This document shows positions 8,190 to 44,797 of a DNA stretch of 48,348 nucleotides, piece by piece (within the stretch, counting starts at the first letter, position 1; every line of letters begins with the position of its first letter). This DNA comes from Bigelowiella natans CCMP2755. Lineage: Eukaryota > Protista > Cercozoa. Below the pieces are notes generated by a model, which saw nothing but the letters and a program-made list of their open reading frames with translations, did not search any database and was not told the origin of the DNA. The stretch is from the NCBI GenBank assembly GCA_000320545.1, contig ADNK01002202.1, forward strand, positions 1 to 48,348, read 5' to 3'. Both the position numbers and the translations under genes were made by a program.

Positions 8190-9932
8190 TTACTCATTTG
8201 ATCTCTCAATCCCAAGCTCTTCCCAAATGTCATCAAGAGCGTCAACCGCCTCCTCTACCATTGTATTATCGTGTAGAGGACCTGGAGTAAATCTGTAACG
8301 CTCGGTGCCGACAGGGACGGTGGGGTAATTAATGGGCTGTACATAGATTCCGTGTTTTTGCATTAGAAGGTCAGCTCCCTTCTTGCATAGTTTTGCGTCC
8401 CCAATCATCACAGGAATAATGTGACTTTCTGAATTTATAAACGGGATACGTCGCGCCTTCAACAATTTTTTCATCGATGCAGCCCTCTCCTTCTGAATAT
8501 CTCTCTCCTCGTTGCTATTTTTCAGGTAGCGTACGCTTGCAAGAGCCCCAGCAGCGACCGAAGGAGGGATTGAGGTGGTAAAAATAAATCCAGGTGCGAA
8601 GCTCCGCACAGCGTCAACGATAACAGAAGGCCCCGCGATGTAGCCTCCATGCACTCCATATGCTTTGCCCAGAGTGCCAGATATGACAGTGATACGGTCG
8701 GAGAGACCGCGTAGTTGAGCAACCCCGCCCCCCTTTGATCCATACAATCCAACAGCATGGACCTCGTCAATATAGGTGAGAGCCCCATATTTGTCAGCAA
8801 GGACGCAGATTTCTTCGATTGGAGCGATATCGCCATCCATGGAGTAGACGCTCTCGAACACAATCAGTTTGTTTGCATCAGGATCGGCGGCAGCGAGTAG
8901 TTCTTCGAGATGGCCGACGTCATTATGACGCCAGATATGCTTGGGAACGCGTGCGTTTCTGACTCCTTCTATCATGGAGGCATGATTTGATGCGTCGGAG
9001 AAGATCTCGCATTTTGGTAAGTGTTTTGCGATTGTGCTAATTGCCGCTTCGTTAGCTACGAAGCCTGAGGAGAAAACAAGAGCTGATTCTTTGTCATGCA
9101 CTTCGCCCAATTCTTTCTCCAGTTTAGTGTGGTAAATTGTAGTTCCAGATATATTGCGGGTACCTCCTGCACCAGCACCTAAGCTACGCGTTGCATCACA
9201 CATTGCATCGATTACAGTAGGATGCTGGCCCATCCCCAAGTAGTCGTTGTTGCACCAAACTTCAATAGATTTTTTCGCAGCCTCTGTGCGTGTTGGATCT
9301 TCGTGATAAGTAGCTTTCGGAAATTCACCAACATGTCTCTCCACGTCAACGAAGGTACGATATTTGCCTTCCTTCTTTAATCCCTCGAGCTTGGAACTGA
9401 GAGCCTCGGACGCAGCCACAGGGAGCGCTGTGGTCTGAATGTCCCTCGCCAACTTTGTGGCAAACTCTTGCTGGGATACTTCCTCAGAGAATTTAATCTC
9501 TGCAATATCCTCCTTTTGTGCAGCATCCGCACGGGGATTCTCGTCGACCTTAACTGAAGGCTCCGATGCGAGGTCGGCAAGATCACATGAGATGTCGTTT
9601 GTTTGAGTAGCCATGCTTGAGAATCCTGAGTAGTACTGGTTGCCAAGTTGTTTCTTCTCGCTAGGAAGTTCTGTCGGGCGTGAATATTGAGACTTCACAA
9701 GGAAAGGACACTTATCCCTAAATTGCTGGAAGTAGGAAGGAAGTTGTCAGAGGACGAAACCCCCCCTTGTTAAAAGAAATGGACATCTTACCGTGTATAC
9801 TTTCGAAAAAGATTCTGCAGGAATGGCGCTTCCCAAGAATGACAAGAAGGGGCATTTTGTTCCCTGCTTGGTGCTTCCAGCGAGGAGGGTGCAGGCCTTG
9901 TTCGTTGCTGTGCAGAGGCGTTGGCTCGCCAT
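8190..9932 (-). CDS. ALAS: 5-aminolevulinate synthase (mitochondrial C4/Shemin pathway); exon 1 9932-9792, intron 9791-9726, exon 2 9725-8190
   Basis: Motifs [63 protein letters not shown] (PLP lysine) and [17 protein letters not shown]...TTCCAG intron joins an N-terminal presequence in frame, giving two CPFL heme-regulatory motifs. Confidence 0.97.
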
Positions 9933-13139: not shown

Positions 13140-14197
13140 TGATGTAATGTGTGCACGCATGCTAGCATGTGTGTGTTATGTGTGTGTGAGTGTGTGTGTG
13201 CGTGTTTGCGTTTGCGCGTGTGGTGCATGTGCTGGCGCGCACAATCTGCAATGCGCATCAAGCTTCTCGATCAGTGTGTGTCAAACACACATTGACAAAC
13301 GATGGGCCGCGTACGTCCGGCTAGCTAGCTCCAAGCTAGCTAGCCTCAATGAGGCCCACGCTAGCTAGGTAGCCAGCACGCATGCCAGCACATCTGGACA
13401 TCCTAGATGCACGAACGCACAGACGATCAGCAATGCATGCCACTAGCATGGTGTGTGTGCACCTAGCTAGCTAGCTGTGCTAGCTGTGGGTCGTTTGTGG
13501 ATCTAGTCAACTAGTCAAGTGTTGTCAGCATGTCCACGTGTCTAGCTGGCTAGAGATGTGTGCACGTTTTGCATCGTCTTGTCAGCTGACATGTTCACAG
13601 CCATTTTGTTCAGATTCAACCATGGACTCAAATGGTGTGTGTGCATGCACGACCATGCCAGCATGCTAGCATGTGTAGGCGTGCTAGCGTGTCTGGAACA
13701 GGCACATCACACATTGCTTCTTGAACTGTTCAAATTGGCAAGGGGGTTTCACTCCCCCGGGTTTTGGTCCGCATCATGCTCGGCGGTTTTGCCCCGGCGT
13801 CAGCCGGGAAAATTTTTCGATTTCACCCAAAAAAATGCAAATTTTGTTCAAATTCCTCAATGTTTTCTTCAAAAACCATCCACAAAGTGTCCAGTGAAAT
13901 TGCCCAAGATGCACATTGGCGGAACTCTTGGCATCGTGTCACTGGGATGTCTCAGATGTGCCCAACCCACTTCCCTGGCGCATGCAGATTTGATCAATGC
14001 TTTGTTCATCATTCCCGCCCTTTCCATCGATGTGTGCACCAGCGTGTGTGACTGATCACGTGCGCAGCGTCGATCATCCAGTCGTGCGCGACGTCGCGAC
14101 GTCGCGACGTGTCTAGCTTCAATTTGATGATGAAGTGACAAGTGTGCATCAGAGTGGGAAGCTGTGAGTGCTTGCGTGCGCGCGCGCTGGGCACGCA
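13140..14197. other. TpA-erased, CTAG-retaining island (left flank of the LTR element)
   Basis: 13687-14197 (511 bp) contains one TpA, inside CTAG (14113-14116). 13140-13690 is rich in gctagc and alternating purine-pyrimidine tracts. Confidence 0.92.
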
Positions 14198-14523
14198 TGT
14201 AGCGCGTACCACTACGCGGGCACAAGTCACGTGCGACAACAAAGGGGTTGTCGCGGATATAGAATATAGATAACGTAGATATTAATACAGCATAGGCACG
14301 TGGGTTCCGGCGGGACTCATGGCAGCACACCGGAAGTGTGCTGCCCCACGTGCGGCGGCATTCGCGAAAGCTTCGCGAATGATTACGCAGTGCACGATTT
14401 AATAAAAATATAATCTTTAATAAAAATAAACACAACTCTTCAAAAGGAAGCAAACGTGCCTTTCCCCCCCCCTGCCTACTTGTGCACGTAGCGCCTCGGC
14501 CTGTGAACACCTTACGCGCAACA
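14198..14523 (+). repeat. 5' LTR (326 bp)
   Basis: TGTAGCGCGTA...TACGCGCAACA (11-bp imperfect terminal inverted repeat). Identical to 19588-19913. Contains AATAAA signals at ~14401 and ~14419. Confidence 0.97.
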
Positions 14524-14528
14524 ACCTT

Positions 14529-14546
14529 TGGCTTCCACACACGGGA
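14529..14546 (+). promoter_or_regulatory. Primer-binding site (complement of a tRNA 3' end, possibly tRNA-Glu/Asp)
   Basis: TGGCTTCCACACACGGGA(AACGA) starts 5 nt after the LTR. Its reverse complement TCGTTTCCCGTGTGTGGAAG-CCA looks like T-arm + acceptor + CCA. The tRNA isotype is a guess. Confidence 0.7.
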
Positions 14547-14562
14547 AACGATTTGACTAACA

Positions 14563-17500
14563 ATGTCACAGCAGCTAGAAGAACAGCAGGACTTTGGCTC
14601 GCAGGCCGTGCAAGGGCACGAGCAGAAACAGGAAAGGAAGGGCGATACGGACGCTAAGGAAGGAGGAGGAACACCTCCACAGGCACCGCCGGGACCAGCA
14701 CCCGGGATTAAGAAAGCAGATGCAGCAGCAGAGGCACTGGAGAACTTCTACGAGGCGGACGACGAGGACGTGGCCGCCGAAAGCAAGAAGGTCGTAATGG
14801 CATTACGAGCCTTGCGACCCAGGGCGAGCAACTACGCCAAACTGAAAGTATCGATAGAATACAAGTATCAGACACATGATGTTTGGGCAGCTATCATGCA
14901 GGACATCATGGATTACGAAGCAGACTTACCTCCAGAGTGGGCAGCTTTGTTTAGGAACGACGGGGGTCTGGGCGCCTCGCGGGGGACGACCCAGAGCACC
15001 GTCAAGCAGCAGCAGCCGGTACAGCGGAACACCCAGTTCATGTCTGTTAAAACAGCACCGGTTATGATAACGAAATACAACGGGAAAAGAGGTGAGGCAA
15101 GGAGGTGGTGGAAGAACGCTAGGAGTATACTCTGCGACTTTACCCCTAACCCCACCGAAAACGACAAGCTCAAATGGCTAGCTATAATAAAGCAAGCCAT
15201 GGACCTTTACGAGACAGGCAGGACCCGGATCAGGCAGCTAGAGAAAATACACACTACAGTTAGTGGGCTACGAGACGTTGAGGCGATAATGAAGGCTTTT
15301 GTAAATGAACAGGATGCTAACTCCCTACCCCAGGCTATTAGAAAATACAGAGCAATGATGCAGCATGAGAGAGAACCTGTTAGAGACTTTGCCACGCGCT
15401 TCCAGGATATGATCGACGAACTACATGATTTTAATTACAACACAGGTGATGATCAGGCAAGGTTTGAAGAGTTCAAGTTAAAGATAAAGGAATCCACTTA
15501 CGTTACGGAGAAAGGCTACACCACGATGGAGGCAGCAGTGCAGGCTATATCCCTACGCGAGCAGGAGCAGGACCGCAAGTTTACCAGCCCTAAGGTACCT
15601 GGCATAGGAAACATTAACGCTATTAAGCCGCAGCGAGACTGGTACAAGGACAGGGAAGGTAACCGACGTTGCGGATACTGCTCACGTAAAGGGAAACACA
15701 CCGCTAAAGACTGCAGAGACAGGAAAGAAGGACGACCCAGGATGACGATCAGGCAGCTCAACGAACACTACGAGAAGTTAAAGAGAAAGAAAGGCAGAGG
15801 ACAAGGATATAACAACAGCAAATGGCAAGGCAGCAACAACGGGAAGAACAATAAATATAAGAACAAAAAGCAGAACAGTATCAATGCTATACAGCAGCAG
15901 ATAAACGGAATATTAGATCACCTTAAGCAGGCGCCGACGAAGACAGCAGTACCAGCAACGCAGGACCAAGACAAGCCCATGACCCTAGACGACATAAAGA
16001 ACTTAGGAGTATGCAACATTAATGACGAAGACGCTAACAGGACTATCAAAGTTGCTATGACCAAGGTTAAAGTTAAAGACAGCTACGGAGACTACAAGAA
16101 ACTACCTGCCCTTTGGGATAGTGGCAGCATGCCGAAGTCCTTCATAAGCCTAAGCACAGTAAGAAGGTTAGGACTATTGGATCAAGTGACTAAGAAAGAA
16201 CGTAAATATGCTCAAGCAGACGGAAGCTCTTCCATGAAGACCGTCGGTGAGCTAATGCTAAAGCTACAGATACCTGGCAGCGACGCGGAGACCCAAATCA
16301 AGACCCGAGTAGCCATGACTTTATCCATGGAACTACTCCTCGGACAGGATGCCCTAGAAAAATTAGGGGGGATCATATCATTCTACAATCACAAGATATA
16401 CTTTGCTAAGTTGCCAAAGAAGTCAGGCAGGACCATCAGCCAGAACATGATACGGCTTGACGAGTGGACCTCTGAGTCAAGCGTTAATGCGTTAGAGTTT
16501 ATGGACCTAGCGGACAACAAGCTACCTACACCTACCGAGCTACGGAAGAAGAACCCCGGCAAGACCATCCGACAGATAACGGAGCTACTGGACAAGACCC
16601 CCCCAGCTGATGATTGGGATATCGACAAAGGCAAAAAGTACATTAATAAAATATTAAACGAGAAGTACTCTGACATCACCAAGCCGACGACGAAGCCCTC
16701 CAGCAAGCTTACCCCAGTAAAGATCGAGCTAAAGAAGGGATACGAAGAGTGCATCATCAATGACCCAGAACATAGGCGACCGGAAGCGGACTGGGAAAAG
16801 ATAGAGTGGCAGATCAATGAATGGGCAAAGGAAGGGAAGATAGAGCCAAGCAACTCACCATGGAACGTGAGACATGTGCTAGCTAAGAAACCTACTTACC
16901 CTTTCTTCCGCCTGGCGCACAACTTCATCCGCCACAACCGAGTAATAAAGAGGATCCAGACACCTACACCAAGGATAGATGACGTTATTGAACACGTCAT
17001 AGGATACAAATACTACTCTTCCCTAGATAAAAATGAATCATACATGCAGACACCCATCCACAAAACCTCCCGCCCCATTACCGCGTTCTCCAGCAGGCAC
17101 AGGAAGTGGCACTTCGTCGTATTCCCTTACGGCCTAAGCATATCAGGGGATGCGTTCAGTAGTCAGAACTACAGGGCATACACACATGATGGGATGGCGT
17201 CTGTGTTGTGGGTGTTTGTGTTTGTGTATGTGGATGATGACATAATATGTACCAACACAGTCGTCGCTCAGATCTTCCTCCTGGAAAATATATTTATTAG
17301 GTTTGCACACTTCGGTTTTACTATTAGACTGCAGAAGTGTACATTCCTAGCTACAAGAATCAAGTGGTGTGGATATTACCTGGAGCAAGGCCGCATCACC
17401 CCAAACCCCGAGAAAGTAGCAGCACTACAGCAAGCCCCTAAACCTAAGAATGCAAAGGAGTTAAAGTCATTCTTGCAGACTGCAGCTTGGATACTACGTA

Positions 17501-19536
17501 GGTTCTCCCCTACCTACGCTAGGACTGCAGCTGCTTTTACTACTGCTTACCGGAAGGAGAACTCTGTAGGCCTCAGCTTCGCTAAGGTGTGGGCCAAGGC
17601 TGGCCTTGATGCCCACTTCGATAACCTAATAAAGTTATGCAGCAACACCCTATTGAATGCTAAGCTAGACACTACTAGACCAGCTACCCTATGGACAGAC
17701 TGGTCTAAGCTAGGTATGGCTGCTGTACTTACCCAAGACCAGCAGATCATACGGGTGTGGGGCAGGGCCTGCACAGCAGCTGAGGCCAAGTACAGCCCTA
17801 CAAAAGGAGAGTATAAAGCCATGACTGAGGCGCAGAGGAAACTAAGATACTACCTGCTGTCGGTGCCCAGCTTCACCTTAATGACTGACCACAAGCCCCT
17901 CCTAGGCATCGACCGCAAGCTCGAAGCGCCTAACGATGAGTATGCAGCTATGAGGGCGGACACGGAAGAGTTTAGGGACAAGAGGACAGTGGTCTACGCA
18001 CCAGGAGACAAGCAGCTTGCTGACTATTTCAGCAGGCTGTTCGAAAAGAAAGTCCCTACCCAGGTCACCCCTATGGTTAACGCGATTACCTTCGAGGACG
18101 GCGACTTCCTGCCTGAGCCAGAGGAGCTCCAGCACCTTCAAGAACACCTGGATAAATACAAACACAAGCATGAGGTACTTAGTGATAGGATATATGTATA
18201 CACTAATAATGTTAGGCGTACCTACGTGCCACGGCGGACCAGGGGAGCCCTTCTCTTTACCGCCCATGGACCTGCACACGTAGGAGAAAACCATATCACT
18301 GCTCTACTCTACCATTACTACTGGCCCTACAAGCTAAAAGAGATAAGGACATACCTGCGTGGCTGCAGGTGCTCCAGCTTGAAGGCGGCAGGCGTCGCCA
18401 CCAAGGAGTCCAGCAAGAGCCGTGCATCTAAGAAAATCAAAGCAAGGAACTTCTTAGATATCGTGCAAATTGATGTTTATAAGTACGATGGCTATCACTA
18501 CCTTACCTTCGTTGATGTGGCCACTGGAAAGTGCTGGGTTAAAAAGATTATCAAGGTCAACGTTGCTAAGAAGAACAAAGGCTTATATAAGCAGAGGCTT
18601 ACTAACTGCTACCGTACCTGGGAGTCTGAGCTCCAGGCTATCCCTGATGAAGTTAGCATAAACAAGATACCAAAGAAGTTACATGTGGATAATGAGACCT
18701 CTCTTCTACAGCTACCACACCCTAATATTGATGCCTCACCTGTATACTATGCCCAGTCCAACTCCAAGGTAGAGCGACTCCACCGCACCTTGGCCAACCT
18801 AAGCAGGATAAATAGCACCACACCAGACAAGATACAAGGGTTAGTAAACGACACCTTCACGTCTGGGGGAGGTATCAAGGATAAGGAGAGGGAAGAAGGC
18901 GACGACAACGACGACGATACCGAGAGCGAAGACGAGAAGGTCCCGTACGATGGCCGAGTTCTAAAGGAAGGACAGTATGTTAGGGCCAAGGTAAATCTGA
19001 GATCGAGAAATAAACAAGACCCCTTCTGGGGTGGCGTTGCAAAGGTTACCGAGAGGAAGGGGAGGAAGCAGTACTACATCTATGATGGGAACAGGGTCAC
19101 CTTGCGCCACATCAGTCACCTAAAGAATTATGATATCGGTGAGAAGCTCCTAGAGGATGTTAAAGTAAACCCTACTGTGTGGGAGCGAGCAATGCCTTGT
19201 TTAGGACCCCGACCTAAGTTCGATGTGGAATATGGAAACAATAAGGTCAGGGTGAACGACGATTGGCGCATGAAGATTGTCTATCTAGGCTACCCTGGAT
19301 TACGAAATATGGAGAGGGTAGCTATGAAAATAAAGGACGGAAAATATCAGCTACTCTACCTAGCTGTTCCCGACTTACCCTTTGAGCACTGGTATAAGGT
19401 CCTGGGGGACCTTGATGCAGAGGGCTGGTATGGACACGAACCTAAGGACGAAGGTGAGTTCTGGGTAAGCGACAAAGGAGATAAGGTTAGAGAGGAATCT
19501 ATTACCTGGTGGTTGGTGAAGTTCCGAAAGCGATGA
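14563..19536 (+). CDS. Gag-Pol polyprotein (1657 aa): Gag with Zn knuckle, aspartic protease, RT, RNase H, integrase, SH3/GPY-F-like module and a C-terminal methyltransferase-like extension
   Basis: CGYCSRKGKHTAKDC (15670-15714); LWDSGS protease (~16117); SPWN, SLDKNESYMQ, FPYGL and YVDD RT motifs; WTDWS...YSPTKGE...TDHKPL RNase H; AHGPAH...CRC Zn module; QID/HVD/KVE integrase catalytic residues. Confidence 0.96.
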   Translation: MSQQLEEQQDFGSQAVQGHEQKQERKGDTDAKEGGGTPPQAPPGPAPGIKKADAAAEALENFYEADDEDVAAESKKVVMALRALRPRASNYAKLKVSIEYKYQTHDVWAAIMQDIMDYEADLPPEWAALFRNDGGLGASRGTTQSTVKQQQPVQRNTQFMSVKTAPVMITKYNGKRGEARRWWKNARSILCDFTPNPTENDKLKWLAIIKQAMDLYETGRTRIRQLEKIHTTVSGLRDVEAIMKAFVNEQDANSLPQAIRKYRAMMQHEREPVRDFATRFQDMIDELHDFNYNTGDDQARFEEFKLKIKESTYVTEKGYTTMEAAVQAISLREQEQDRKFTSPKVPGIGNINAIKPQRDWYKDREGNRRCGYCSRKGKHTAKDCRDRKEGRPRMTIRQLNEHYEKLKRKKGRGQGYNNSKWQGSNNGKNNKYKNKKQNSINAIQQQINGILDHLKQAPTKTAVPATQDQDKPMTLDDIKNLGVCNINDEDANRTIKVAMTKVKVKDSYGDYKKLPALWDSGSMPKSFISLSTVRRLGLLDQVTKKERKYAQADGSSSMKTVGELMLKLQIPGSDAETQIKTRVAMTLSMELLLGQDALEKLGGIISFYNHKIYFAKLPKKSGRTISQNMIRLDEWTSESSVNALEFMDLADNKLPTPTELRKKNPGKTIRQITELLDKTPPADDWDIDKGKKYINKILNEKYSDITKPTTKPSSKLTPVKIELKKGYEECIINDPEHRRPEADWEKIEWQINEWAKEGKIEPSNSPWNVRHVLAKKPTYPFFRLAHNFIRHNRVIKRIQTPTPRIDDVIEHVIGYKYYSSLDKNESYMQTPIHKTSRPITAFSSRHRKWHFVVFPYGLSISGDAFSSQNYRAYTHDGMASVLWVFVFVYVDDDIICTNTVVAQIFLLENIFIRFAHFGFTIRLQKCTFLATRIKWCGYYLEQGRITPNPEKVAALQQAPKPKNAKELKSFLQTAAWILRRFSPTYARTAAAFTTAYRKENSVGLSFAKVWAKAGLDAHFDNLIKLCSNTLLNAKLDTTRPATLWTDWSKLGMAAVLTQDQQIIRVWGRACTAAEAKYSPTKGEYKAMTEAQRKLRYYLLSVPSFTLMTDHKPLLGIDRKLEAPNDEYAAMRADTEEFRDKRTVVYAPGDKQLADYFSRLFEKKVPTQVTPMVNAITFEDGDFLPEPEELQHLQEHLDKYKHKHEVLSDRIYVYTNNVRRTYVPRRTRGALLFTAHGPAHVGENHITALLYHYYWPYKLKEIRTYLRGCRCSSLKAAGVATKESSKSRASKKIKARNFLDIVQIDVYKYDGYHYLTFVDVATGKCWVKKIIKVNVAKKNKGLYKQRLTNCYRTWESELQAIPDEVSINKIPKKLHVDNETSLLQLPHPNIDASPVYYAQSNSKVERLHRTLANLSRINSTTPDKIQGLVNDTFTSGGGIKDKEREEGDDNDDDTESEDEKVPYDGRVLKEGQYVRAKVNLRSRNKQDPFWGGVAKVTERKGRKQYYIYDGNRVTLRHISHLKNYDIGEKLLEDVKVNPTVWERAMPCLGPRPKFDVEYGNNKVRVNDDWRMKIVYLGYPGLRNMERVAMKIKDGKYQLLYLAVPDLPFEHWYKVLGDLDAEGWYGHEPKDEGEFWVSDKGDKVREESITWWLVKFRKR

Positions 19537-19578
19537 AGGTCTAAGGGAATAAGGAAGGAAGGAAGGAGCAACGTGACT

Positions 19579-19587
19579 TGGGGGAGG
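19579..19587 (+). promoter_or_regulatory. Polypurine tract (PPT)
   Basis: TGGGGGAGG immediately 5' of the 3' LTR. A further purine run lies at ~19543-19568. Confidence 0.85.
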
Positions 19588-19913
19588 TGTAGCGCGTACC
19601 ACTACGCGGGCACAAGTCACGTGCGACAACAAAGGGGTTGTCGCGGATATAGAATATAGATAACGTAGATATTAATACAGCATAGGCACGTGGGTTCCGG
19701 CGGGACTCATGGCAGCACACCGGAAGTGTGCTGCCCCACGTGCGGCGGCATTCGCGAAAGCTTCGCGAATGATTACGCAGTGCACGATTTAATAAAAATA
19801 TAATCTTTAATAAAAATAAACACAACTCTTCAAAAGGAAGCAAACGTGCCTTTCCCCCCCCCTGCCTACTTGTGCACGTAGCGCCTCGGCCTGTGAACAC
19901 CTTACGCGCAACA
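19588..19913 (+). repeat. 3' LTR (326 bp)
   Basis: Base-for-base identical to the 5' LTR on visual alignment; followed by TSD CGCA. Confidence 0.97.
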
Positions 19914-20539
19914 CGCACAAAGTGTGCCAGTGTGCGCCATCGTGCCCACACGTCTTGCTCGTGCGTCCAATCCCAAGCAGCTCTGGAGCTGCGCGTCGCG
20001 CATCACATCCAGCTTCATTGATTGCCGCATCGGCACCGTGCAGGCCGCTAGGAGCCACACATCGAAAACTCACCAAAGTCAAAACCACCAAAAAAAAGCA
20101 CTTTTTTGGCGCGGAAACGTTCAATTTTGCGAATTTTGGAGTGGAACTTCTGGAGGTGACGGAGTTGCTCTTGACACGGCCTCTGAGCATGTTTTTTTGA
20201 GCCAACGCGCAAAGGGGACCCTTTCCGCGGCACCCAAAGTTTTTGCCCTCGATTTTTTTCCTTGAAAATCCACTTTTTTGCACCCCTTTCTGGACAATTC
20301 TGGACCTTCTCACACGTCCAGAAGTCTTCTGTGGTGCTTCGGAAGAAGTTTGGATTGGATTCCGAGCATGACACGGACCAAAACCCGGGGGAGTGAATCC
20401 CCCTTGTCAAATTGGACATTCAGCTTCGCTGTGGACAAAGGGCAGCGCCGGCACAGTTGCATCACGCGTGGATTTCGTTGTCGTCGGAACATGAAATCGC
20501 GAAAAACAATGACATTTTCCTGATGCGACGTGAACATTT
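19914..20539. other. TpA-erased island (right flank of the LTR element)
   Basis: 626 bp with a single TpA, inside CTAG (20048-20051), despite long A and T runs. Confidence 0.93.
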
Positions 20540-21158
20540 TAGCTTGGTTTTCTGTCAATCGCCTGATTTTGTTCCGATCATTCCCAAGATTTTTTGTGAA
20601 TTTAACTTTTCGGCTAAAATTACTACGACCAGTAGACCAGCTGGTGCACCCCACCTCCACACACAAGACAGAGAGGTGATACTGAGACAGTAGGTGGAAT
20701 AGTCACCGTTAGCGAAGCCGGAAAGGATGGCCGGAGTGAGATATATGTCCATAGAACTTCCTTTACGATATCATCATTGAAAATCTTTATGAAGTGAGCC
20801 GCACGTCATGATTTCGTCGTCAGTGCCTGAAATTCACGTCTTCACAAGTCAATGTGCGATGTCATTTAGTTTCTGAAATGGAAATCCTTGCTGGCGCAAC
20901 GTGATAAGGACTGAGATAGACCCGTCGCACCTACGAAGGAGCCAACTCAACTCGATTCAGAACGAGAGATAAAATGCGAGCATCGAATTTGGCCACAGTG
21001 TCTCGGGGAGGATACTTCCTCAGCATTATCCTGGGAATCACGGCGGCAGGTAGCAGTGTGGTGAGAGTCCCAGGTACATCGTTTCACTTTATCGTTGGCT
21101 TTGTAATTGAAGTGCATTGAATGATGCTCGAAGTAGAGTGTACTCGGAATGATAAAAT

Positions 21159-26851: not shown

Positions 26852-29800
26852 TCAGGACGATGGCCCTAGCACTGGAGATTCAGATTCCAACGTGGTGTCA
26901 TCGGACAGAGAATTGGTTTTATTTCCTGAAATACTTTCATTTTTATGTGATATCGTCACTGGGAGTGGTGCTGGATCTATCACACGTCCTGTTTCGTGCT
27001 GATTAATGACTGTCTCACGGCATTCCCGCGAACGACCCCGACGGCGAACAAGAGATGCAGATGGGAGGCTGTTGGATCTCGAATGGCTTTTACTTTTCGA
27101 TTTCTTCAAAGCATGCACGATTTCATCTTGTTTTGATTTCTTGGCCTGAAACGAGAAAAAAAGTGACTATTGAATACACAAATATAGGACATAAGCTTTC
27201 ACGAACCGAATGCAAAGGCGTACTTCCCCAACGATCCTTCACGTCAGCACTTGCCTTGTGTTCCAATAGTAGTTTGCACATTTGCAGATTTCCATCAGCT
27301 GCTGCTATGTGAAGACCTGTGCGATAATCATAATCTCTAACATTTGGACTAGCACGAGCGCTTAAGAGTCGCCTTAGTTTTGCGACATCTCCCTGATGTG
27401 TCACATTACATAAGTATTCTCCTCTGTTTTTTAACCGAAGTTGGGCTCCATGGGATAATAAAACTTTGAGAACTCCATCACGGCCATTTTCTACAGCTTC
27501 AAGTAGTGGAGTCCTCCCAATATGGTCTTCACAAGACATGTTTGCTTTATACTTGATTAACAACTGTAAGAGGAGAATTAGAAAATTAAATTGAAGACTT
27601 CTGTTCAATAGATGTTACGAAATCTCACCTTTACAACATCCAGATTTCCCTTGGCAGCAGCAAGATGTAGAGGAACTCTTTTGTCATAGTCTCCGACGTT
27701 TACAATATTTTCCATGCCTTGAAGTGCACGTTCTAGTTGACGTGAATTATTTGATGAGGCTAACTGACACATATGGGAAGCAATATTGTGTTCGCAGTGT
27801 TCCTTAAACGCAATCACGCTCTGCCGTGTCTCATCTGCTATATGTTGGAATGAAAACAAAGGGCTTGTAATTTGCAACTTCCGGACTCTTCCCTGAAAAA
27901 ATTCGCATTTTACATGGAAGTCAGATAAAATGGTAATTGAATCTACCCGCCCAAAGGGCCCTTTTTTTGACCTCCTTAAGAATCTAATTCTCTCCTCCGG
28001 ACGAAGAGTTTGTAGCTGTGACGCAGGACGGCTCTTTAGATCGTCTGTTGTCAACGAATTAAATGATTTCCATTCAGTAAGCTGCCTAGTTTTACTTTCA
28101 TCGGGGACTGTGGACACTTTTGGAGTCTGATTTGCCTGAATCGCATCGTCCTCCCCAACTGGTGTTGAAGAAGGTAACGTTGGGGTTGATGTTGCTATGT
28201 TTGCATTATCATTTTCTCCGTTAATTTGCCTCCTTCGCAGAAGCTTATTTGGCTCTTTTTCTGTCAATGGATTTCTTCGAGATTTGAAGACTTCCATTTC
28301 ATTTTCCTTTGCTAATCCAGATCTGTCATATCTCTTTGGGGACGTTCCCCGATAGATCGTTCTGGCATATTTATGTGATAAGTAATAACAATGGCATGAA
28401 AGAAACATATAACCTTAGGAATGTTTTCCCCTTCCTTTTGTCTAACGAGCTGAACCCCGAAGTATGACCACTATTTGCATCCTCATACGTTTCTCGTCTG
28501 CTTGTATGTCTGCTTCCTTGTCTGCTTCCTTGTCTGCTTCCTTGTCTGCTACCATACCTTTTCCCAATTCTTCTCTGTTTTGGGGAAGGCATCCACAGAA
28601 TTAAATTCAGATGCCATAGTACTTTGAGGAAAATAAAGTATCAAAATACTCACACAGGCGGCGATTGAATCCCTCAGGCAGCGTAATCTTTGGACTATAT
28701 TTGATACGACGTGTAGACCATCCAATGCGAAAACATTTTCAAGCTCTCGTTTGAAGCCTTCTTCGATTTTTAAAATAATAGAACTTTCCCTGACCCGAAT
28801 CTGTAATTTTAATTCGATCATGAAACATTCTTACGAACAAACAAAAAGTACTTGTCAAGTTAGGTTTGCTTTATGACTGATTACAGTAAATGGCTGATGT
28901 CCACCAGCAAAGAAACCTTCAGATCCAAAGTGCCCTCCTGGCCGTATGATAGCACAAGATTCCTATTGTTTGTGTTTGTGGTTTTCAATATCATATGAAT
29001 CTTTGGCATTATTGAAGAATCTTTACCTCTTTTGATTCATCTCGACTATGCCTCTTTGAAGCATCACCTGGTGTTAAGATCTCGCACTCTCCTTTGACAA
29101 GGATATAGAAGGCACAACCGTAATCTCCACGCTGGATTATTTTCATACCCTATCAAACAATTCAATATAATATGTGCCAGAGACGCAAAGTTTTCATATA
29201 TTACCGCCATGAAAAGTTCCTCTTTTACATAGGCAAGGAGGTTCTCGCCAAAATTAGCACTTACTCCATGAAAAATATCTATTGAATTAATCATATCATG
29301 GAACCGTGCACATCGAATCTTCATTCGTACTGCAGCCGGAAGGACATCCATGGCTTCTTGTCCGCGTGCAAATTTCAAACTCTCTTGTAACTGAAGGAAG
29401 CCTAACACCTAGTTGAAATATTGATTGTCATAAAGGGGGAAAATTTTTTGTCCAGAAACCAACCTTACGCTGTAATCCTTTTGGAACTTGAGACCTTCGT
29501 AAGAACTTAGCTATATCGTCAAGATGTTCTCTCCATTGTCCTACCTTAGAATCAGGTCGAGATACTAGGAAAGTAATCTGTCCAATAAGATATGACGTTA
29601 TTCCTAGATTGGTCATCATGTAGAGCACCGCCCTAGAATGAAGCACAGAGACTGTGAGACAAAATTCAATCATCTGAATATTTCTGTATTTATATAATCA
29701 GGTACCAAGCGCGCTCTTGGACATTTTGTGGAGCAAAATCTGCATAGCCCACAGTCGTAAACGTGGTTACTGCAAAATATAGCGAGGTCGTATATCTGGT

Positions 29801-30560
29801 ACCAAGGGACTCATTCTCAAGCCCTATTGCACTAGCCCCAACCCAGGTGTTTTCACCGAAACCTTCTTGACGAGCGAATTCGTAGAAAATGCATGCCGCC
29901 CAATGAGTGTTAAAGGTCATCATCATCACGTATTTAAGGAATGAGACTACAAAGTAGTTAAATAGTCTGCTTTTTTCCATGGCTGTAAGAAGTGGGAAAA
30001 ATCGTCGAAGCCTAAGAAGTCGGAATAGCTGGAGCAAAGATAGGTAAGGTCCATCGACTACTCTTTCGAAAGGAAATATTGACAGTATATCCACCGCGAA
30101 GTAGGTTGTTAAATATTTACGCGCTAGGACTCGGTGTTCTGTAATTCGAAGGCCGTGGGTCTCCAAAGAGACGAAAAAAGTCATTATAATGTCGATGTAA
30201 AACAAAACATCGAATGAAATTTCTAAGTTGTCGCCCTCCCTATCCTCTAAGAAAGCCATGGCAAGAGGTGTGACGATCGCAGATATGAGGGACAACAATG
30301 CAATCTGAGTTGGAAAAACTTGAGTCAGTGGAATACAAGTTCTAAATTTCTTCAGTTCCTTTCGGGAGTGCATTTCAAAGATTAAGTTCCTCTCGACCTA
30401 CCAGAGTCCACCATGATAAATAGAAGGGACCATCATGATGTACAATGAAATCGGTGAAAAAACTTGATCCTTTGCTTTCATCCTCATCATCTGAACTGTC
30501 CAGACTATTTCTCATAATCACTTCCAAATAATCCGCATCAGCGAGAGCGCCGTCCACCAT
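26852..30560 (-). CDS. Plant-type Shaker/AKT-like K+ channel (6TM + pore, cyclic-nucleotide-binding domain, ankyrin repeats); multi-exon
   Basis: S4 segment LLQLFRLLRLRR; pore YTTSLYFAVTTFTTVGYAD; S6 YMMTNLGITSYLIGQIT; C-linker/CNBD segment (IDIFHGVSANF...KEELFM); ankyrin repeats DYDKRVPLHLAAAKG, DHIGRTPLLEAV, DYDYRTGLHIAAADG and DRWGSTPLH. Short AT-rich introns. Confidence 0.93.
28507..28552 (-). repeat. 12-bp coding tandem repeat (GSRQ)x3 + GSRH in the K+ channel
   Basis: tgtctgcttcct repeated; the ORF track reads YGSRQGSRQGSRQGSRH. Confidence 0.85.
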
Positions 30561-31428: not shown

Positions 31429-34400
31429 TTGGTGAGAATAATTGCATTTGCAATACCTGCTCCTGAAGCTCCATTTAATAACAACGACGACGACGACGAA
31501 GGCAGCGATGACGACGATGACGAGGATATCGACGATATTCTTTCATATTCTTGGACTAGCAACGTTGCTGGTCTAGAACTTGAACCAGAGCCTTCTCTAA
31601 CTTTTCCAGCTTCGCTGCTTGCTGGGGGGGCTGGATCATATATTTTCACAGTCACAGTCACGGATACACGCCAACCCAGTCTCCAATCAACGGTAATATA
31701 CATTTGAAGGGATACAATTCGTGGTCTCTTACACTATAATAACTCTAGGGCTCAGTCACTGTGACATTATTTGATTTCCCGACAATTTCTGCATTCTCAA
31801 TCGCTCCGACAAATGGGATAGCATACACAGACATATTTACCGGAACTGTGGATGCAGCAGGCAGCATGCCTCTTTTTTATTTATTTAGGGACACTCTTAC
31901 AGGAGATCCTTTGTCAACTTTTGATTTGGACTCTACCATTGAGTTTGTTGTCTCACCTGGATTCAGACCAATATCGGTAACAATACGAGACTCTGTGGGA
32001 GGAGAACAAACGGCGATGTCAAATCCTATAAATGTGACAGGCCAGATAGTTCCACAACTAGATTCTCTTCCACAATTAGATTCTCTTTGCATCCAAGTTT
32101 CAACCATCTTCAATGATATGTTAACACTTCTGAACAGCGTTGAGATAGCTTTGGGGAAAAGTCCTACTCAGTCTCTGGAACCACTTCTCGACGGTGGAAT
32201 ATTGCTGCAAGAGACGCTTTCAGATGCAACACAAGCGATGGAATATGACTTGGGATTTAGAACTTCACTTTTTTTTATTGACCTACTTCAGTTAGTCCCT
32301 TTTTCTACAGAACCTATTTCAAGCTGTTCAACGACGCTCGGGATCAACGGTAGTCAGCTTAATGGAACTGTTGCATCTATATCCAGGATCCTGTGGGAAG
32401 TAGTTGTAGACGAGCTTCGTGAATCAATAGAGGCAGATCCTGGAGTAGAAGGTCGGAAACTCGAGATGCTTCTTCAGGTTTGACGAACATATTTCATTAT
32501 ATAATTGTACACATTATGATACTTAACGATAGGAATTAGCACTATGATTTCGTAACAATGTGTTTTTTATGCTTAAATGCTCCCCTTTCTTCAACTCCCA
32601 GAACCTCGATTCGTTGGTGAACAATACATATCGGGTTCCTTCTCTCAATATCGTAGCTGACTTTGCGACAATGCTGAATGTAACCGTCGCAACAACGACA
32701 CCTTCGCTCATCGTGGACACATTTCTTGGGATACGCTTAGCACAGACATCTTCAAATCTACTTGCAATGGCTATTGGTTTAACAAATGAAGGCAGCGATC
32801 TAGACTGTTCAAGCCTAGACTTCTCTCTGGCATACTTCGATGAGGTCTGACCTCCATAGAGTAGTAGTATTAGTAGAGTAGTAGTAGTAGTAGTAGTGGT
32901 GGTGGTTGAAGTATAGACTAAACTCGCTAACTGATGCAAAATACGAACAAATCTTAGATGTTAGAGCAAGCCGGAAACGCACTCGCTCCTCTGGACTTAG
33001 CGTATGGAATTCAATCGCCAATTGTACAGGCCGTGACATCCAATGTATTCAGCGATGGCAGCAATTATGGAACTGAATTAGCTTCGGGAGTTCAGGTGGC
33101 TGTGTCGTCGCCACCTGGCTTATCTCTAATAGATGTTACTGGGCAAGGAGAAAGAACAACAGAGATTCTAACCATAGCTACACTTCCTACTATTTCTTCT
33201 TCATCTCCATGTCGACAGCCATTACCTGGTTTCATCCCACGTACGTCCCTGACCAGCGTCACTTCCACAGGGGATGTATCTAGTGGCGTCACGATCACTT
33301 TCCCAGGCTTAGTTCCTTCTGAAGGAACCGAGCTTACCTGCCAGTTTTGGGATGTGGCTGCTCAGAGCTTTAGTTCAGAGGGGTGCATCACCATATTCAA
33401 TGCGAATGGGCAAAATGTACAATGCATCTGCAACCATCTTACCCAATTTGCGGTATTTGAGTCTCAAGCCACTGGAGAGGAACCATCGCTTGCAAAGCAA
33501 GCTATATTTGTAGCAGTTGCTGGCTCTTTCTTCTTCCTTATCTTATCTATTTGTATGACGGCGTACCAGATCCAGTCTAAGAAAAAGCGCTTCGACAATT
33601 TGAAGATGACGTTTCTTCTCTTCCAATGCCTGTCTAGTATTCCCCTTAGTCTTTTGTTATCTGGCTACATTGATGGATTTAGAATTTCAGATGTAACGCC
33701 GATTGTGTTGGTTATTGTATTTTCTACACCTCATACTTTGCAGTGGGGCAGTTACATCATCTCTTTGTATCAGTGGGCTGTGATAAATTACAATGTTGGG
33801 ACACAACAGAGCATGCTAAAAGAACTCTCGGATATATTTTCTGAGTACATCTGGTCGGTATACCTGAGCCTTTTTGCAGTTGTTGCGTTAGTCTGGCTTA
33901 GTTTCTCCATTTTCTTCTTCTATATAAATAATCCGATTCGAGTCGTTGGACCAATAGTTCAATTTTTACTTAAAGTCGGATTTGCGGTCGGCATAGTACA
34001 TATTGGACGACAGACAAAAGAAATTATGGATCAATTGACTCATGCAGAAGCACTGAAGGGGAGAATCCAGGCCGTATCTGTTTACATTAAGATTCATAGC
34101 TACTTGTTACTAAGTCAAAGCGTAATTCTTGTGGCAGCTGCAGCAGTTGCATTTGATTCAAATGCTCTCATCCTGTCACTTGTAATTTGGTACGTTGCTG
34201 ATATACTGTTGGTTGTCCTGCAGATTGATTTTTTAAGAGGATTATCACTGCTGAAAGGCGCGATAGACGTCACGCACACAGTAAAGAGATCAGTCACGAA
34301 AAGTAGAAATGTCTCCGGAACAAAGGGCAATGTTCAACTGAGTTTGGAATTGGCAACCGATGAGGAAAACAAAAATAGAGATGCTGACATATCAAGAGTC

Positions 34401-34679
34401 AGGAGTAAGAAAAAGAGTGTGGATTCAGTACCTTCTACTGCGGATGGGTCTATGACACGGGCGGGACCACCACATACGCCGAATGACAGCTTTGCTTTGA
34501 TAAAAACAGGTGCAACATCTACTTATTCTATCTCACCTGCAAGTGTGCAGAATTCTCGAACCCCTTCATCCGATCATTCGCTACTTCATTATAACTCGTC
34601 GCGTACTGAGGATCGAATTCGCCGCGATCTAAGAAAGAAAAATGTAGGGCATCTTGTGATAGAGCATGCAGTTGATTGA
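31429..34679 (+). CDS. REJ/PKD-like ectodomain + GPS (GAIN) + ~7TM receptor, adhesion-GPCR/polycystin-like; 5' end uncertain (possibly ~30800)
   Basis: YSWTSN...SLTFPASLL...YIFTVTVTD and FSIAPTNGIAYTDIF...PLFYLF look REJ-like. The GPS motif CQFWDVAAQSFSSEGC...CICNHLTQFAVF is followed by about 7 hydrophobic segments and a Ser/Lys-rich tail. Exons ~31429-31690, 31750-32477, 32530-32844, 32958-34679. Confidence 0.85.
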
Positions 34680-41221: not shown

Positions 41222-42219
41222 GTGATGGTGATGATTACTACTACTTCTGCAACAAACATCCTAACGGCATGGCGAGTTGCTGTTTTCGTCTAGACGTACA
41301 GGAAATCGCTCGTTTCAATGTCACAAATAATCACAGAAGAAGACCCCAAATCCCAAATGCCATCGGCTTCTTCGCTACATCTTCGTTAATAATACCTCCC
41401 ATGTGCTTTGCCACGCTTGCATAGGCCCCAGCTTTCTATCTCCTCCAGGCTTTGATAATCCAGCAGCGCTATTGCTCCGTCGGTCCCTTCGTTTGCCATC
41501 GCTAACTGTCGCCCCTTTCTCTTCTTTGGCATTCACGATGTCACCTGCGCCACTTTGCCTTCCATCCGTTGAAGAGGCGCTACTCCTCCGCCCTGTTGGG
41601 AAAGAAGAAGGAGACACGCGTGACTTTTTGGAAGACAGTGCCAACGATAATGCAAAACATGAAAGTGCGCACTGGACCTTTGTTCGATGCCTGCAGCATC
41701 TCGTTGATTTTGACGAGTTTAGCTTCGTTGTGCTGCATTGCATGCATCATGAAAAGGAGTTTCCACCAACGACGCAACGCTTTTCAAATGAATATAGTTG
41801 GGGGCTTACCTCCTTCTCCATTGTGTATATTTTCCCAATAACCGAGACGGCCTTTCTTGTATTAAAGAGAACTTCTCGCAACCTATTTGGGGCAGAATGA
41901 GGGCAGACAACCAACCCCGCAGTTTTATACGATTCCTGCTTAATTTTAAGAGCCAAAAAATTCCTTATAAAATTGGAAATTCCCATCCCTAGCCCCCCTA
42001 ACAAAGATTCCCGTACTTCTTAGCGATGGCATCGGTCAATGCAAAGAGGTTCTTTTTTGTCTTCGCCCTCCGCTTCCTTTCAGGAGAGGGGGCCGAATCA
42101 TCCATCACAGCCTTCTCTGATATCTCTTGGCTGGTTTCACTAGTTTCTTGATCACTGCAAGGCCTATTCTCCTTGCCCTTTCCGCCGGCAAGCGGCGGGG
42201 AGGCGGCCGTCGAAGCCAT
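35908..42219 (-). CDS. TLDc-domain protein, possibly with an upstream TBC-like region; many small exons in microsatellite-rich introns, 5' extent tentative
   Basis: Exons read WACTYAMKKDGASLERMSRSLKNSRGKIIIFKDS, GGKFGFFTPHPL...YYGGRETQIFKI, SLTVGGSDPAIYVDRYLKNG, ISGASSTFGSPAL and FVLHDVEAWGEVE* (stop 35908-35910), the TLDc motif series in order. FAEFAIKRQLPALCKEYQKIGVD (~39200) is weakly TBC-like. Confidence 0.75.
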
Positions 42220-42441
42220 GGAGCAACCGCCTTTTTGTTTCTTCTTCGAACCCTCGGGATCAATTCAGTCCAAAATCCAAGCCATTTTCACCATAATTAA
42301 CTTAAATTCCTTGTCGCAATGATATTTTCCCTTGGTACTCCATCAAAAGTTGCCAACCAGGAGAGAGCATGAGCCCTCACCACTTCATCACGTTCCGCTT
42401 TTGCAGCCGCTTGATGATCTTGAGGCGCGTCCAGCTTGTTA

Positions 42442-43400
42442 GCCTTGTGCACACCTTGTTGGAATGTCGAAATGAACATGAATCAATCCACCATTCATTC
42501 AAGGGCGACTGTCCATGAAAATTTCTTTCTTTCTTTCTTTCTTCGATCGTTCACTCGAAAATCAATGGGTCAAACTTCAATGTTTGCCGAGTGCAACACA
42601 GGCGCACCTTTGTTTGTCCAGTGTGCAGACATTCACTTGTCGTCCATTGTGTCTTCCGCATTGTTCTTGTTTTGTTCTTCTTCGGTTTGTCGCTTCACAA
42701 AGCTCCGCTCCCCTCCGCCTGGCACAACTCGTTTTTTCCAAATTGTCACTGACGTTCATGCAACACATGCACCACCAGTTTTCGGGAAGGGTTTCATGTT
42801 GTGCAAGAACAAACACGGCGCATTTGTGAGAAGCATGTGCATTCAACTCATTGGCACGAGCGTGCTGCACAAGCTAGCAAGCGTGACAACTGTGCAACTC
42901 GTGTGGACCACTGTCACAGTGGACGGCGTTGACGTTTCCAGCTAGCCAGGTTTGGATGTTTGTGCAGCGCAACAGCCCGCTATGACCCTTTGGAACGGTG
43001 CGTCCATCGGTGGGTTTAGCTGCTGCACAAGGACAATTCTGGACCAAAAGTGAGCTGGTCGTCTGCGGCCTCATCACACCTAGCACACATTGTCAGTTGC
43101 TACATGTGCGCCGCAGATGCACGCTAGCACGTGTCAAGCAGATGTTTGACATGTGTCTAGACATCTTGTAGACATGCCAGGATGCTGTGCATGATGTGAG
43201 CGTCCAGATCGACGCAATGCAAAGCATGCTCAGGCTAGAGCTGGACTGATCGAGATCGCGATGACAGCACAGATCACGTAACTGACAGGAAGGCTAGTAT
43301 GGTAGACCACCTAGCCACGCTGTGCACATGCATGACACGTGCACTAGCTACACATCTAGACATGTCTAGATATCTGCAGGCGTGAGACTTAAAATTTGAC
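42442..43400. other. TpA-erased, CTAG-retaining island downstream of NSRP1
   Basis: 42442-42980 (539 bp, T-rich) has two TpA, both in GCTAGC. TpA reappears gradually toward 43400. Confidence 0.92.
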
Positions 43401-44668: not shown

Positions 44669-44797
44669 AGGCTTGGCACAAGGTGGAGAGGGAGCGGCAA
44701 AGTTTAGAAAAGTGATTTGCCAGCGGAGATGAGAGTGTAACAAATACAATGGCTTTTTCCCCGTGCGACAATGGAATATTCATGTCTCTTACTCTAG

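What the first reader, a model, noticed from the sequence alone, without database searches (positions are those of the whole stretch)
19159..19536. Gypsy integrase ends in a degenerate Dam-like N6-adenine methyltransferase fold, where chromoviruses carry a chromodomain
Seen: after the SH3/GPY-F-like module (GQYVRAK...FWGGVAKV...RHISHLK) there are ~125 extra residues beginning VKVNPTVWERAMPCLGPRPKFDVEYGNNKVRVNDDWRMKIVYLGYPGLRNMERVAMKIKDGKYQLLYLAVPDLPFEHWYKVL. Established: DIRS1-type retroelements carry a phage-Dam-like domain with the approximate pattern L.P..F..I...G...DLFA...N...DW....YAFPP...I.RVL.KI...ILVVP.WP...W...L. By eye the order and spacing match (DW, VY, ERVAMKI, LAVPDLP, W..L). The [DNS]PP[FY] catalytic motif appears as GYPG and DLFA as DVEY, so it is probably inactive. 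Inference: a dead MTase fold fused to a Ty3/gypsy integrase could act as a DNA- or methyladenine-reading targeting module.
Basis: partly seen in the sequence, partly recalled or inferred. Interest (0 to 1): 0.8.

Follow-up and report, generated by a model that had tools for sequence, protein, structure and literature searches.

The report
Gypsy integrase with dead methylase tail
An intact jumping gene in a marine alga ends its integrase with a conserved domain predicted to have the shape of an adenine-methylating enzyme but lacking its catalytic motif, so it is likely a non-catalytic binding module, a divergent variant of a design described in a 2026 preprint.

Summary
Confirmed. The 126 residues end a 1,657-aa Gag-Pol ORF of an intact, young Ty3/gypsy element (identical 326-bp LTRs, 4-bp target duplication); identical records are named Bigelowiella natans. 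Pfam, PHROGs and NCBIfam miss the domain, but 38 diverged relatives exist. An alignment-based model (pLDDT 95) matches phage Dam-type N6-adenine methyltransferases (TM 0.60-0.66) and PCIF1. The family profile aligns with DIRS-type domains above all 100 shuffles. None of 38 rows has a canonical [NDSH]PP[YFW] motif, and 13-18 residues of the SAM-binding half are missing, so it is likely a pseudoenzyme. No targeting or 6mA-reading role is shown: the adenine-stacking aromatic is gone, the family is mostly acidic, and only one insertion site was seen. Gypsy elements with Dam domains are in a 2026 preprint, inactive DIRS versions were proposed in 2016, and this scan noted similar elements, some degenerate, on other DNA. 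New here: a deeply diverged, conserved clade below Pfam detection, in a chlorarachniophyte. Side findings: 20 minus-strand splice junctions across the element in marine RNA, and TpA hypermutation of old copies. Verdict: new variant of a known kind.

The parts
14198..14523 (+). 5' LTR, 326 bp, TG...CA, identical to the 3' LTR
14194..14197 (+). Left target-site duplication CGCA (right copy 19914-19917)
   Evidence: flanks
14529..14546 (+). Candidate primer-binding site (TGG, 5 nt after the LTR); the priming tRNA was not identified
   Evidence: print; inference from position
14563..19536 (+). Single Gag-Pol ORF, 1,657 aa from the first Met, no internal stop
16099..16359 (+). Aspartyl protease (DSG)
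   Evidence: Pfam PF13975 E 0.0022, below the curated cut-off
16801..17928 (+). Reverse transcriptase (YVDD) and RNase H; nearest solved relative is Ty3
   Evidence: Pfam PF00078, PF17917, PF17919; 4ol8 and 7q5b, E about 1e-24
18226..18852 (+). Integrase HHCC and catalytic core; second D to E spacing 27 rather than 35
   Evidence: Pfam PF17921 E 0.0022; PFV integrase E 0.0044; spacing 26-27 in all 15 of 17 sequences where it could be measured
18964..19125 (+). SH3/GPY-F-like integrase C-terminal module (assigned by position, not folded)
   Evidence: conserved, mean 47% identity to 16 relatives; weak PFV integrase profile match
19126..19533 (+). Dam/DIRS/PCIF1-type N6-adenine methyltransferase-fold domain, likely catalytically dead
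19288..19299 (+). GYPG at the position of catalytic motif IV (NPPY in phage Dam)
19580..19587 (+). Polypurine tract directly before the 3' LTR
19588..19913 (+). 3' LTR
14842..19505 (-). Span of 20 splice junctions (19 GT-AG, 1 GC-AG on the minus strand) in RNA contigs: spliced antisense RNA, with no long ORF in the part tested

Best explanation
The integrase of this intact Ty3/gypsy element ends in a conserved domain predicted to have a Dam/DIRS-type adenine-methyltransferase fold that lacks the catalytic motif, and it likely works as a non-catalytic tether that holds the integration complex on a host chromatin-associated partner or target DNA. Shown: intact young element, in-frame fusion, conservation across a deep clade, fixed spacing to the SH3-like module, absence of motif IV. 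Predicted: the fold (about 0.93). Inferred: capture once from a DIRS-type element and inheritance with the integrase; loss of catalysis (about 0.85); a tethering role during integration (the weakest step, about 0.45-0.5); a protein partner is at least as likely as a methylated base.
For: Fold: pLDDT 95.0, pTM 0.89 with a 42-row alignment. Foldseek on viral models gave 15 matches at E<=0.001, of which 6 are named (adenine-)methyltransferases and 1 a giant-virus 'WW domain-containing protein', TMq 0.58-0.66. A Foldseek-independent search of 48,161 solved chains put PCIF1 first (Z 6.9, rmsd 3.3, 111 aligned), then KsgA/Erm, with T4 Dam at Z 5.0. Sequence: DIRS-type profile match above all 100 shuffles; 30 of 42 family domains beat the 99th percentile of shuffles on the DIRS HMM, and only the C-terminal one of 23 windows of the polyprotein scores (8.8 bits, next 0.3). 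Dead: 0 of 38 rows canonical; motif-I Asp to Trp spacing 14 (12 of 12 measurable rows) against medians of 32 (DIRS) and 27 (phage Dam). Kept by selection: mean 33% identity to 16 relatives with invariant P82 and W89; distances correlate with integrase/SH3 distances (Mantel r 0.40, n 16). Part of the integrase tail: spacing from the SH3-end motif to P82 is 85-88 in 30 of 31 sequences. Targeting by integrase C-terminal modules is established for chromoviruses (stated in bioRxiv 10.64898/2026.05.21.726589). The one insertion seen lies inside a TpA-depleted, inverted-repeat-bounded relic.
Against: No binding or targeting data, and a single insertion site. The family domain is mostly acidic (median net charge -3.7 per 100 aa, pI 5.2, n 34; this copy pI 8.0) against +0.7 for DIRS domains, which does not favour direct DNA binding. 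No PDB Foldseek match reached E<=0.001, and Z 6.9 is within the range the tool says a common arrangement can give. The profile match to phage Dam alone was within shuffle range (16.7 against a maximum of 19.9), and the HH probability to DIRS was only 32%. Other gypsy elements carry Dam-like domains at other positions (preprint; unverified scan notes), so position next to integrase need not imply a role in integration. The domain is less conserved than RNase H (52%), integrase core (46%) or the SH3-like module (47%).
Confidence: 0.45

Rival explanations
1. The dead fold acts earlier, inside the particle: it would bind the element's own RNA or cDNA to aid packaging or reverse transcription, or shield adenines from a host adenine-editing defence.
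For: PMC4738411 proposes that inactive DIRS1 domains interact with template transcripts (passage). The nearest solved structure is an RNA-cap enzyme, PCIF1. The host mutates TpA in foreign DNA (bioRxiv 10.64898/2026.01.13.699255), and old copies show it: 16 of 18 differences in P0024 are TpA-type; P0036 has no Tyr in 1,243 aa.
Against: Copies carrying the domain were still hypermutated. The domain is mostly acidic. The fixed join to the integrase tail fits an integrase function more simply.
Confidence: 0.22
2. The domain is a structural part: it would stabilise or multimerise an integrase whose core is shortened, with no ligand of its own.
For: The integrase D-to-E spacing is 26-27 throughout the clade, the SH3-to-domain spacing is fixed, and many of the most conserved residues are Trp, Pro and Gly, as expected of a fold core.
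Against: GYPG is itself strongly conserved at the former active-site loop (G 30/38, P 35/38, G 35/39), which suggests a retained binding surface.
Confidence: 0.17
3. It is still an active methyltransferase with a non-canonical motif that would mark new cDNA with 6mA, as proposed for DAM-LTRs.
For: The fold is retained. A divergent subgroup has Ser-Phe-Pro-Phe/Leu at motif IV (P0067, P0068; P0084, P0085), and one cluster has Asn there (NYVG). DAM-LTR copies are 6mA-enriched in ichthyosporeans and Euglena (preprint).
Against: 0 of 38 canonical motifs, and 13-18 residues lost from the SAM-binding half. Even NPP-bearing eukaryotic DAMs gave no 6mA in E. coli.
Confidence: 0.08
4. The domain is an unrelated small alpha/beta fold that resembles Rossmann methyltransferases by convergence.
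For: The single sequence has no hit in Pfam (E<=1), PHROGs or NCBIfam (E<=10); structural Z is under 8; identity to DIRS or phage domains is only 10-12%.
Against: Five partly independent lines point to the same family: viral Foldseek, PCIF1 at the top in PDB, the DIRS profile, a weak Pfam Dam hit for one relative (E 0.032) and language-model neighbours (Dam clusters at 0.79-0.80, a lead only).
Confidence: 0.05

Closest known systems
DAM-LTR retrotransposons (Fernandez-Moreno et al., bioRxiv 10.64898/2026.05.21.726589; read parts 1-4 of 5 of the main text, supplements closed)
   Same: Ty3/gypsy element with a Dam-like domain in Pol; small domain with a five-strand sheet, one N-terminal and further C-terminal helices; probable capture from DIRS.
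   Different: Their domains were picked by HMM at E<1e-5 and keep Asn-Pro-Pro. This clade has GYPG, a shortened SAM-binding half and no such Pfam hit (best relative E 0.032). None of their five lineages is rhizarian; Bigelowiella, Rhizaria and chlorarachni- occur 0 times in the main text. Their supplementary tables could not be checked.
MT domain of DIRS1-type tyrosine-recombinase retrotransposons (PCIF1 clade of Iyer et al., PMC4738411; passages read)
   Same: Best sequence match; embedded in a retroelement polyprotein; judged likely inactive, with binding or mimicry roles proposed.
   Different: Here it follows a DDE integrase in an LTR element with a target-site duplication rather than RNase H; it is about 18 residues shorter in the N-terminal half and has a distinct Trp-rich C-terminal part.
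Phage Dam-like N6-adenine methyltransferases (Pfam PF05869) and PCIF1/CAPAM
   Same: Predicted fold (TMq 0.58-0.66 to viral models; Z 6.9 to zebrafish PCIF1); GYPG in register with NPPY.
   Different: No catalytic motif, no Pfam hit, 10-17% structural identity.
Chromoviruses (chromodomain at the integrase C-terminus)
   Same: An extra domain at the same position in a Ty3/gypsy Pol.
   Different: No chromodomain hit or fold; no targeting shown; RT placement relative to chromoviruses not tested.

Membership tests
Ty3/gypsy LTR retrotransposon | Direct LTRs TG...CA with target-site duplication and polypurine tract | tested here: met
   identical 326-bp LTRs, CGCA duplication, purine tract before the 3' LTR
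Ty3/gypsy LTR retrotransposon | Order PR-RT-RH-IN and Ty3-like RT/RNase H | tested here: met
Ty3/gypsy LTR retrotransposon | Primer-binding site matching a host tRNA | tested here: inconclusive
   TGG 5 nt after the LTR; no tRNA in the window and no genome held
Ty3/gypsy LTR retrotransposon | Integrase D,D(35)E triad | tested here: inconclusive
   Residues present and invariant in 16 rows, but spacing is 27; the canonical 35 is recalled knowledge
Chromovirus | Chromodomain after integrase | tested here: not met
   no chromo hit at E<=1 in the polyprotein or 38 relatives; model is alpha/beta and matches methyltransferases
Chromovirus | RT groups with chromoviruses in a tree | not tested
   no reference RT set was fetched
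Dam N6-adenine methyltransferase (PF05869) | Reaches the Pfam cut-off (28.1 bits) | tested here: not met
   no hit for the window domain; 1 of 38 relatives hits at 14.4 bits
Dam N6-adenine methyltransferase (PF05869) | Reduced Rossmann methyltransferase fold | tested here: met
   predicted model
Dam N6-adenine methyltransferase (PF05869) | Catalytic motif IV [NDSH]PP[YFW] | tested here: not met
   0 of 38 rows
Dam N6-adenine methyltransferase (PF05869) | SAM binding and methyl transfer | not testable with these tools
   needs an assay
DIRS1-type MT domain | Profile similarity above chance | tested here: met
   the reference set of 77 was picked by a YAFPP pattern, and 65 of 77 follow an RNase H end motif
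DIRS1-type element | Tyrosine recombinase instead of a DDE integrase, no target duplication | tested here: not met
   DDE-type integrase, direct LTRs and a duplication
DAM-LTR (2026 preprint) | Ty3/gypsy element encoding a Dam-like domain | tested here: met
DAM-LTR (2026 preprint) | Conserved Asn-Pro-Pro pocket and HMM hit at E<1e-5 | tested here: not met
DAM-LTR (2026 preprint) | 6mA enrichment on copies; host encodes AMT1 | not testable with these tools
   no genome or methylome held; AMT1 is reported for Rhizaria in general (PMC7145601, one passage)

The most novel reading that the evidence does not exclude
A marine gypsy clade turned a captured adenine methyltransferase into a reader that steers integration into chromatin marked for the host's TpA adenine-editing defence, or that shields new cDNA from that defence: a chromodomain-like targeting module built from a dead methylase. 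The one insertion seen sits in a TpA-erased relic, and Tyr-poor copies among the metagenomic relatives hint that other hosts of this clade share the mutator.
Probability: 0.12. Interest if true: 0.8.

Novelty: new variant of a known kind. Interest (0 to 1): 0.4.

Why it matters
The DAM-LTR preprint explains these domains as 6mA writers, while the older DIRS literature calls them inactive. A deep clade that keeps the fold without the catalytic motif, fixed to the integrase tail of a recently mobile family, shows that the fold can be selected for something other than canonical catalysis. It also shows that Pfam-based screens undercount such elements. Because this family is young, intact and multi-copy in a culturable alga with a sequenced genome, insertion-site mapping and domain assays are feasible, which makes the non-catalytic question testable. 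The function itself remains unshown.

Tried and rejected
Single-sequence scans of Pfam, PHROGs, NCBIfam and PDB sequences gave nothing useful; collagenase hits (E>=0.48) were rejected. The single-sequence fold was unusable (pLDDT 39). The Atlas gave no usable hit for the window domain. PDB sequence searches with family profiles gave only spurious rows: TALE repeats, by summed weak repeats in the integrase part, and V-ATPase C at E 0.5. tblastn of one relative against phages gave Dam-annotated hits only at E 0.2-0.7, used as a lead. Profile-profile comparison with phage Dam alone was not above shuffles, and a global-mode run failed to align. A DIRS pattern in viral contigs gave 2 chance loci. 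Word-based homolog searches found mainly same-genome copies. Locus searches with the family alignments could not run, so no DNA context, dN/dS or insertion sites of relatives were obtained. No host genome is held. Complex prediction of integrase core with the domain gave no answer (score 0.00, alignments not used); it is not evidence either way. The second-look structural alignment (pdb_via) never ran. A coding antisense gene was tested for 18150-19600 with 8 introns removed: stops in all three frames, longest open stretch 118 codons, so it was rejected for that splice pattern only. A one-LTR circle reading of an RNA contig that runs from the ORF end through the LTR into gag was not accepted, because contig graphs collapse identical LTRs. 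One misaligned row (P0081) was dropped between alignments A2 and A3, and P0032 (partial) was left out of A1. A1's 42 rows include 5 near-duplicates of other rows. Claims of absence from print rest on searches of an open-access library only.
Full report
Observation. The window is eukaryotic, microsatellite-rich DNA. The flagged 126 residues are the end of one stop-free frame, 14557-19536, with first Met at 14563. It lies between two identical 326-bp LTRs (14198-14523, 19588-19913), flanked by a CGCA duplication and preceded at the 3' LTR by a purine tract. Pfam finds RT, RNase H, and weaker protease and integrase zinc-binding hits in that order, and nothing at E<=1 in the last 200 residues. The RT-RNase H part is closest to Ty3 among solved structures. 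Proteins with 99-100% identity are named Bigna1/Bigelowiella natans gene models; 8 clusters were found and 20, some with 14-25 member sequences (not a copy count). The element is therefore an intact, recently inserted, multi-copy Ty3/gypsy retrotransposon of a chlorarachniophyte alga.

Relatives. An exhaustive phmmer search gave 46 hits at E<=0.001: 8 identical or near-identical and 38 others. Those long enough carry RNase H, integrase and the SH3-like module upstream and end with this domain; one B. natans model runs on past it. Of 10 looked up, 7 are from metagenome or run assemblies without a host name, 2 are other B. natans models and 1 is an MMETSP transcript, so the host range is unknown. 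In a 42-row alignment (5 rows are near-duplicates) P82 and W89 are invariant and three more Trp are nearly so. Mean identity to the window protein is 33% for this domain, 46-47% for integrase core and SH3-like module, and 52% for RNase H; domain distances track integrase distances (Mantel r 0.40, n 16; shared descent alone explains this). The spacing from the end of the SH3-like module to P82 is 85-88 residues in 30 of 31 sequences.

Fold. Without an alignment the model was unusable. With it, all five models reached pLDDT 94-95. Against viral models, 15 matches had E<=0.001; 6 are named methyltransferases (5 of them N6-adenine), 1 is a giant-virus 'WW domain-containing protein', 1 is uncharacterised and 7 have no name; TMq 0.58-0.66. 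Against the PDB no match reached E<=0.001; the top rows were Trm11 and PCIF1. The independent aligner ranked PCIF1 first (Z 6.9), followed by KsgA/Erm and other SAM-dependent enzymes, with T4 Dam at Z 5.0; Z under 8 is not decisive alone. Language-model neighbours of one relative were Dam clusters at 0.79-0.80, a lead only.

Sequence kinship. I built two reference sets: 38 phage Dam proteins (from 124 loci, 98 unique candidates) and 77 DIRS-type domains (from 116 pattern-picked loci), 65 of which follow an RNase H end motif; 2 of 3 tested hit Pfam Dam and PCIF1 weakly. Against phage Dam the score was within shuffle range, though GYPG fell on NPPY. On the DIRS HMM, 30 of 42 family domains exceeded the 99th percentile of shuffles; on the phage HMM, 8 of 42 did. 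A DIRS-type donor is thus the better fit, but no tree was built and the donor is not established.

Catalysis. In 38 rows with the segment complete, motif IV reads GYPG (18), AYPG, GFPG or GCPG (3 each), GHPG or NYVG (2 each) or single variants; none is canonical. Six of the 7 rows with C, H or R in place of Y are Tyr-poor proteins, likely TpA-mutated copies. The stretch from the presumed motif-I Asp to the Trp before the catalytic strand is 14 residues against medians of 32 and 27; exactly where the deletion falls differs between aligners. The phage and DIRS alignments differ by one residue in register, and either way the polar catalytic residue and the following aromatic are missing. From established enzymology of N6-adenine methyltransferases (own knowledge), these residues activate and stack the flipped adenine, so the domain is likely inactive. 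Two divergent rows keep Ser-Phe-Pro-Phe/Leu, closer to the ancestral motif.

How it likely works. The fixed join to the integrase tail and clade-wide conservation make a non-catalytic tether for the integration complex the best single guess (0.45). Direct 6mA reading in the old pocket is not favoured: the stacking aromatic is lost, the family is mostly acidic, and I found no report of 6mA in this host. Rivals are a role on the element's own RNA or cDNA (0.22), a structural role beside a shortened integrase core (0.17), residual catalysis (0.08) and convergence (0.05). The one insertion site lies between 62-bp inverted repeats (13722-13783, 20362-20422; 88.7%) in DNA almost free of TpA (rho 0.15 and 0.05 against 1.06 in the element). 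That fits targeting to silenced relics, but a single site also fits chance or survival bias.

What is known. bioRxiv 10.64898/2026.05.21.726589 (parts 1-4 of 5 read; term search; supplements closed) describes five DAM-LTR lineages found by HMM at E<1e-5, with Asn-Pro-Pro kept, and names no rhizarian lineage in its main text. PMC4738411 (passages) places DIRS1 domains with PCIF1, calls them likely inactive and proposes RNA binding or mimicry. PMC5890265 (passages) covers cytosine methyltransferase capture by gypsy and DIRS elements. PMC7145601 (one passage) reports AMT1 in Rhizaria. PMC12695648 (term search) does not mention this host. The scan's own unverified notes list 7 similar gypsy-Dam findings in other genomes, several called degenerate and two after the integrase; none matched this sequence. 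The element works like a DAM-LTR in architecture, fails the catalytic and HMM criteria, and is not a chromovirus by domain content. Novelty: new variant of a known kind.

Side findings. RNA contigs from marine metatranscriptomes show 26 joints over the element (15 listed; 5 more seen). All 20 listed fit minus-strand introns, 19 GT-AG and 1 GC-AG, of 56-165 nt; 8 of 20 occur in two or more runs of different studies, and none occurs in 2 DNA runs that cover 14198-17000 unbroken. MMETSP translations show matching skips. Contigs carry no strand information, so the antisense reading rests on splice-site orientation. In the part tested the spliced RNA has no long ORF, and introns are T-rich on the minus strand (36% against 25%), so default splicing of antisense read-through of an A-rich element is the plain explanation. 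Old copies show TpA-to-TpG/CpA change, the signature reported for this host in bioRxiv 10.64898/2026.01.13.699255 (abstract and passages).

Verdict. Interest 0.40.

Noticed in passing
window 14842-19505 (minus strand): Twenty listed splice junctions (19 GT-AG, 1 GC-AG) run antisense across the whole element in marine RNA contigs, 8 shared between studies and absent from 2 DNA runs. One more is implied by MMETSP proteins (18644-18739) and one, read by eye, from 19541 into the 3' LTR (19826). No long ORF in the part tested. A candidate silencing RNA, or default splicing of antisense read-through.
   Followed up: partly
P0024, P0032, P0036, P0040 (older B. natans-type copies); P0056-P0059, P0065, P0084 (metagenomic relatives): Tyrosine-free or tyrosine-poor copies: 16 of 18 differences in P0024 are TpA-type, and P0036 has no Tyr in 1,243 aa. 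This extends the reported TpA hypermutation to gypsy elements and hints that unnamed hosts share it.
   Followed up: partly
window 13520-14197 and 19914-20600: The element is inserted in a TpA-erased relic with 62-bp inverted repeats (13722-13783 / 20362-20422); 6 of the 8 surviving TA steps are in CTAG.
   Followed up: partly
window 18472-18852: The integrase core has a D-to-E spacing of 26-27 across the clade and appears short at its C-terminal helices.
   Followed up: partly
window 42000-43000: Another TpA-depleted stretch (rho 0.21), possibly a second mutated relic.
   Followed up: no
window 14461 and 14567: Three RNA runs share a 1-nt deletion in the LTR C-run and three share a C>T at 14567, suggesting wild strains or one source copy differ from this copy.
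   Followed up: no
P0030 (gene model): A fragment of the domain lies inside a gene model whose other part looks, from recall, like a plastid-targeted light-harvesting-like protein; probably a mis-joined model.
   Followed up: no
P0080: A full-length relative carries both a CCHC knuckle and a CCCH zinc finger in Gag.
   Followed up: no
window 8190-9746, 29690-30397, 32958-34679, 43589-44779: Ordinary host coding stretches: aminotransferase class I/II, ion transport, GPS motif and NSRP1.
   Followed up: no
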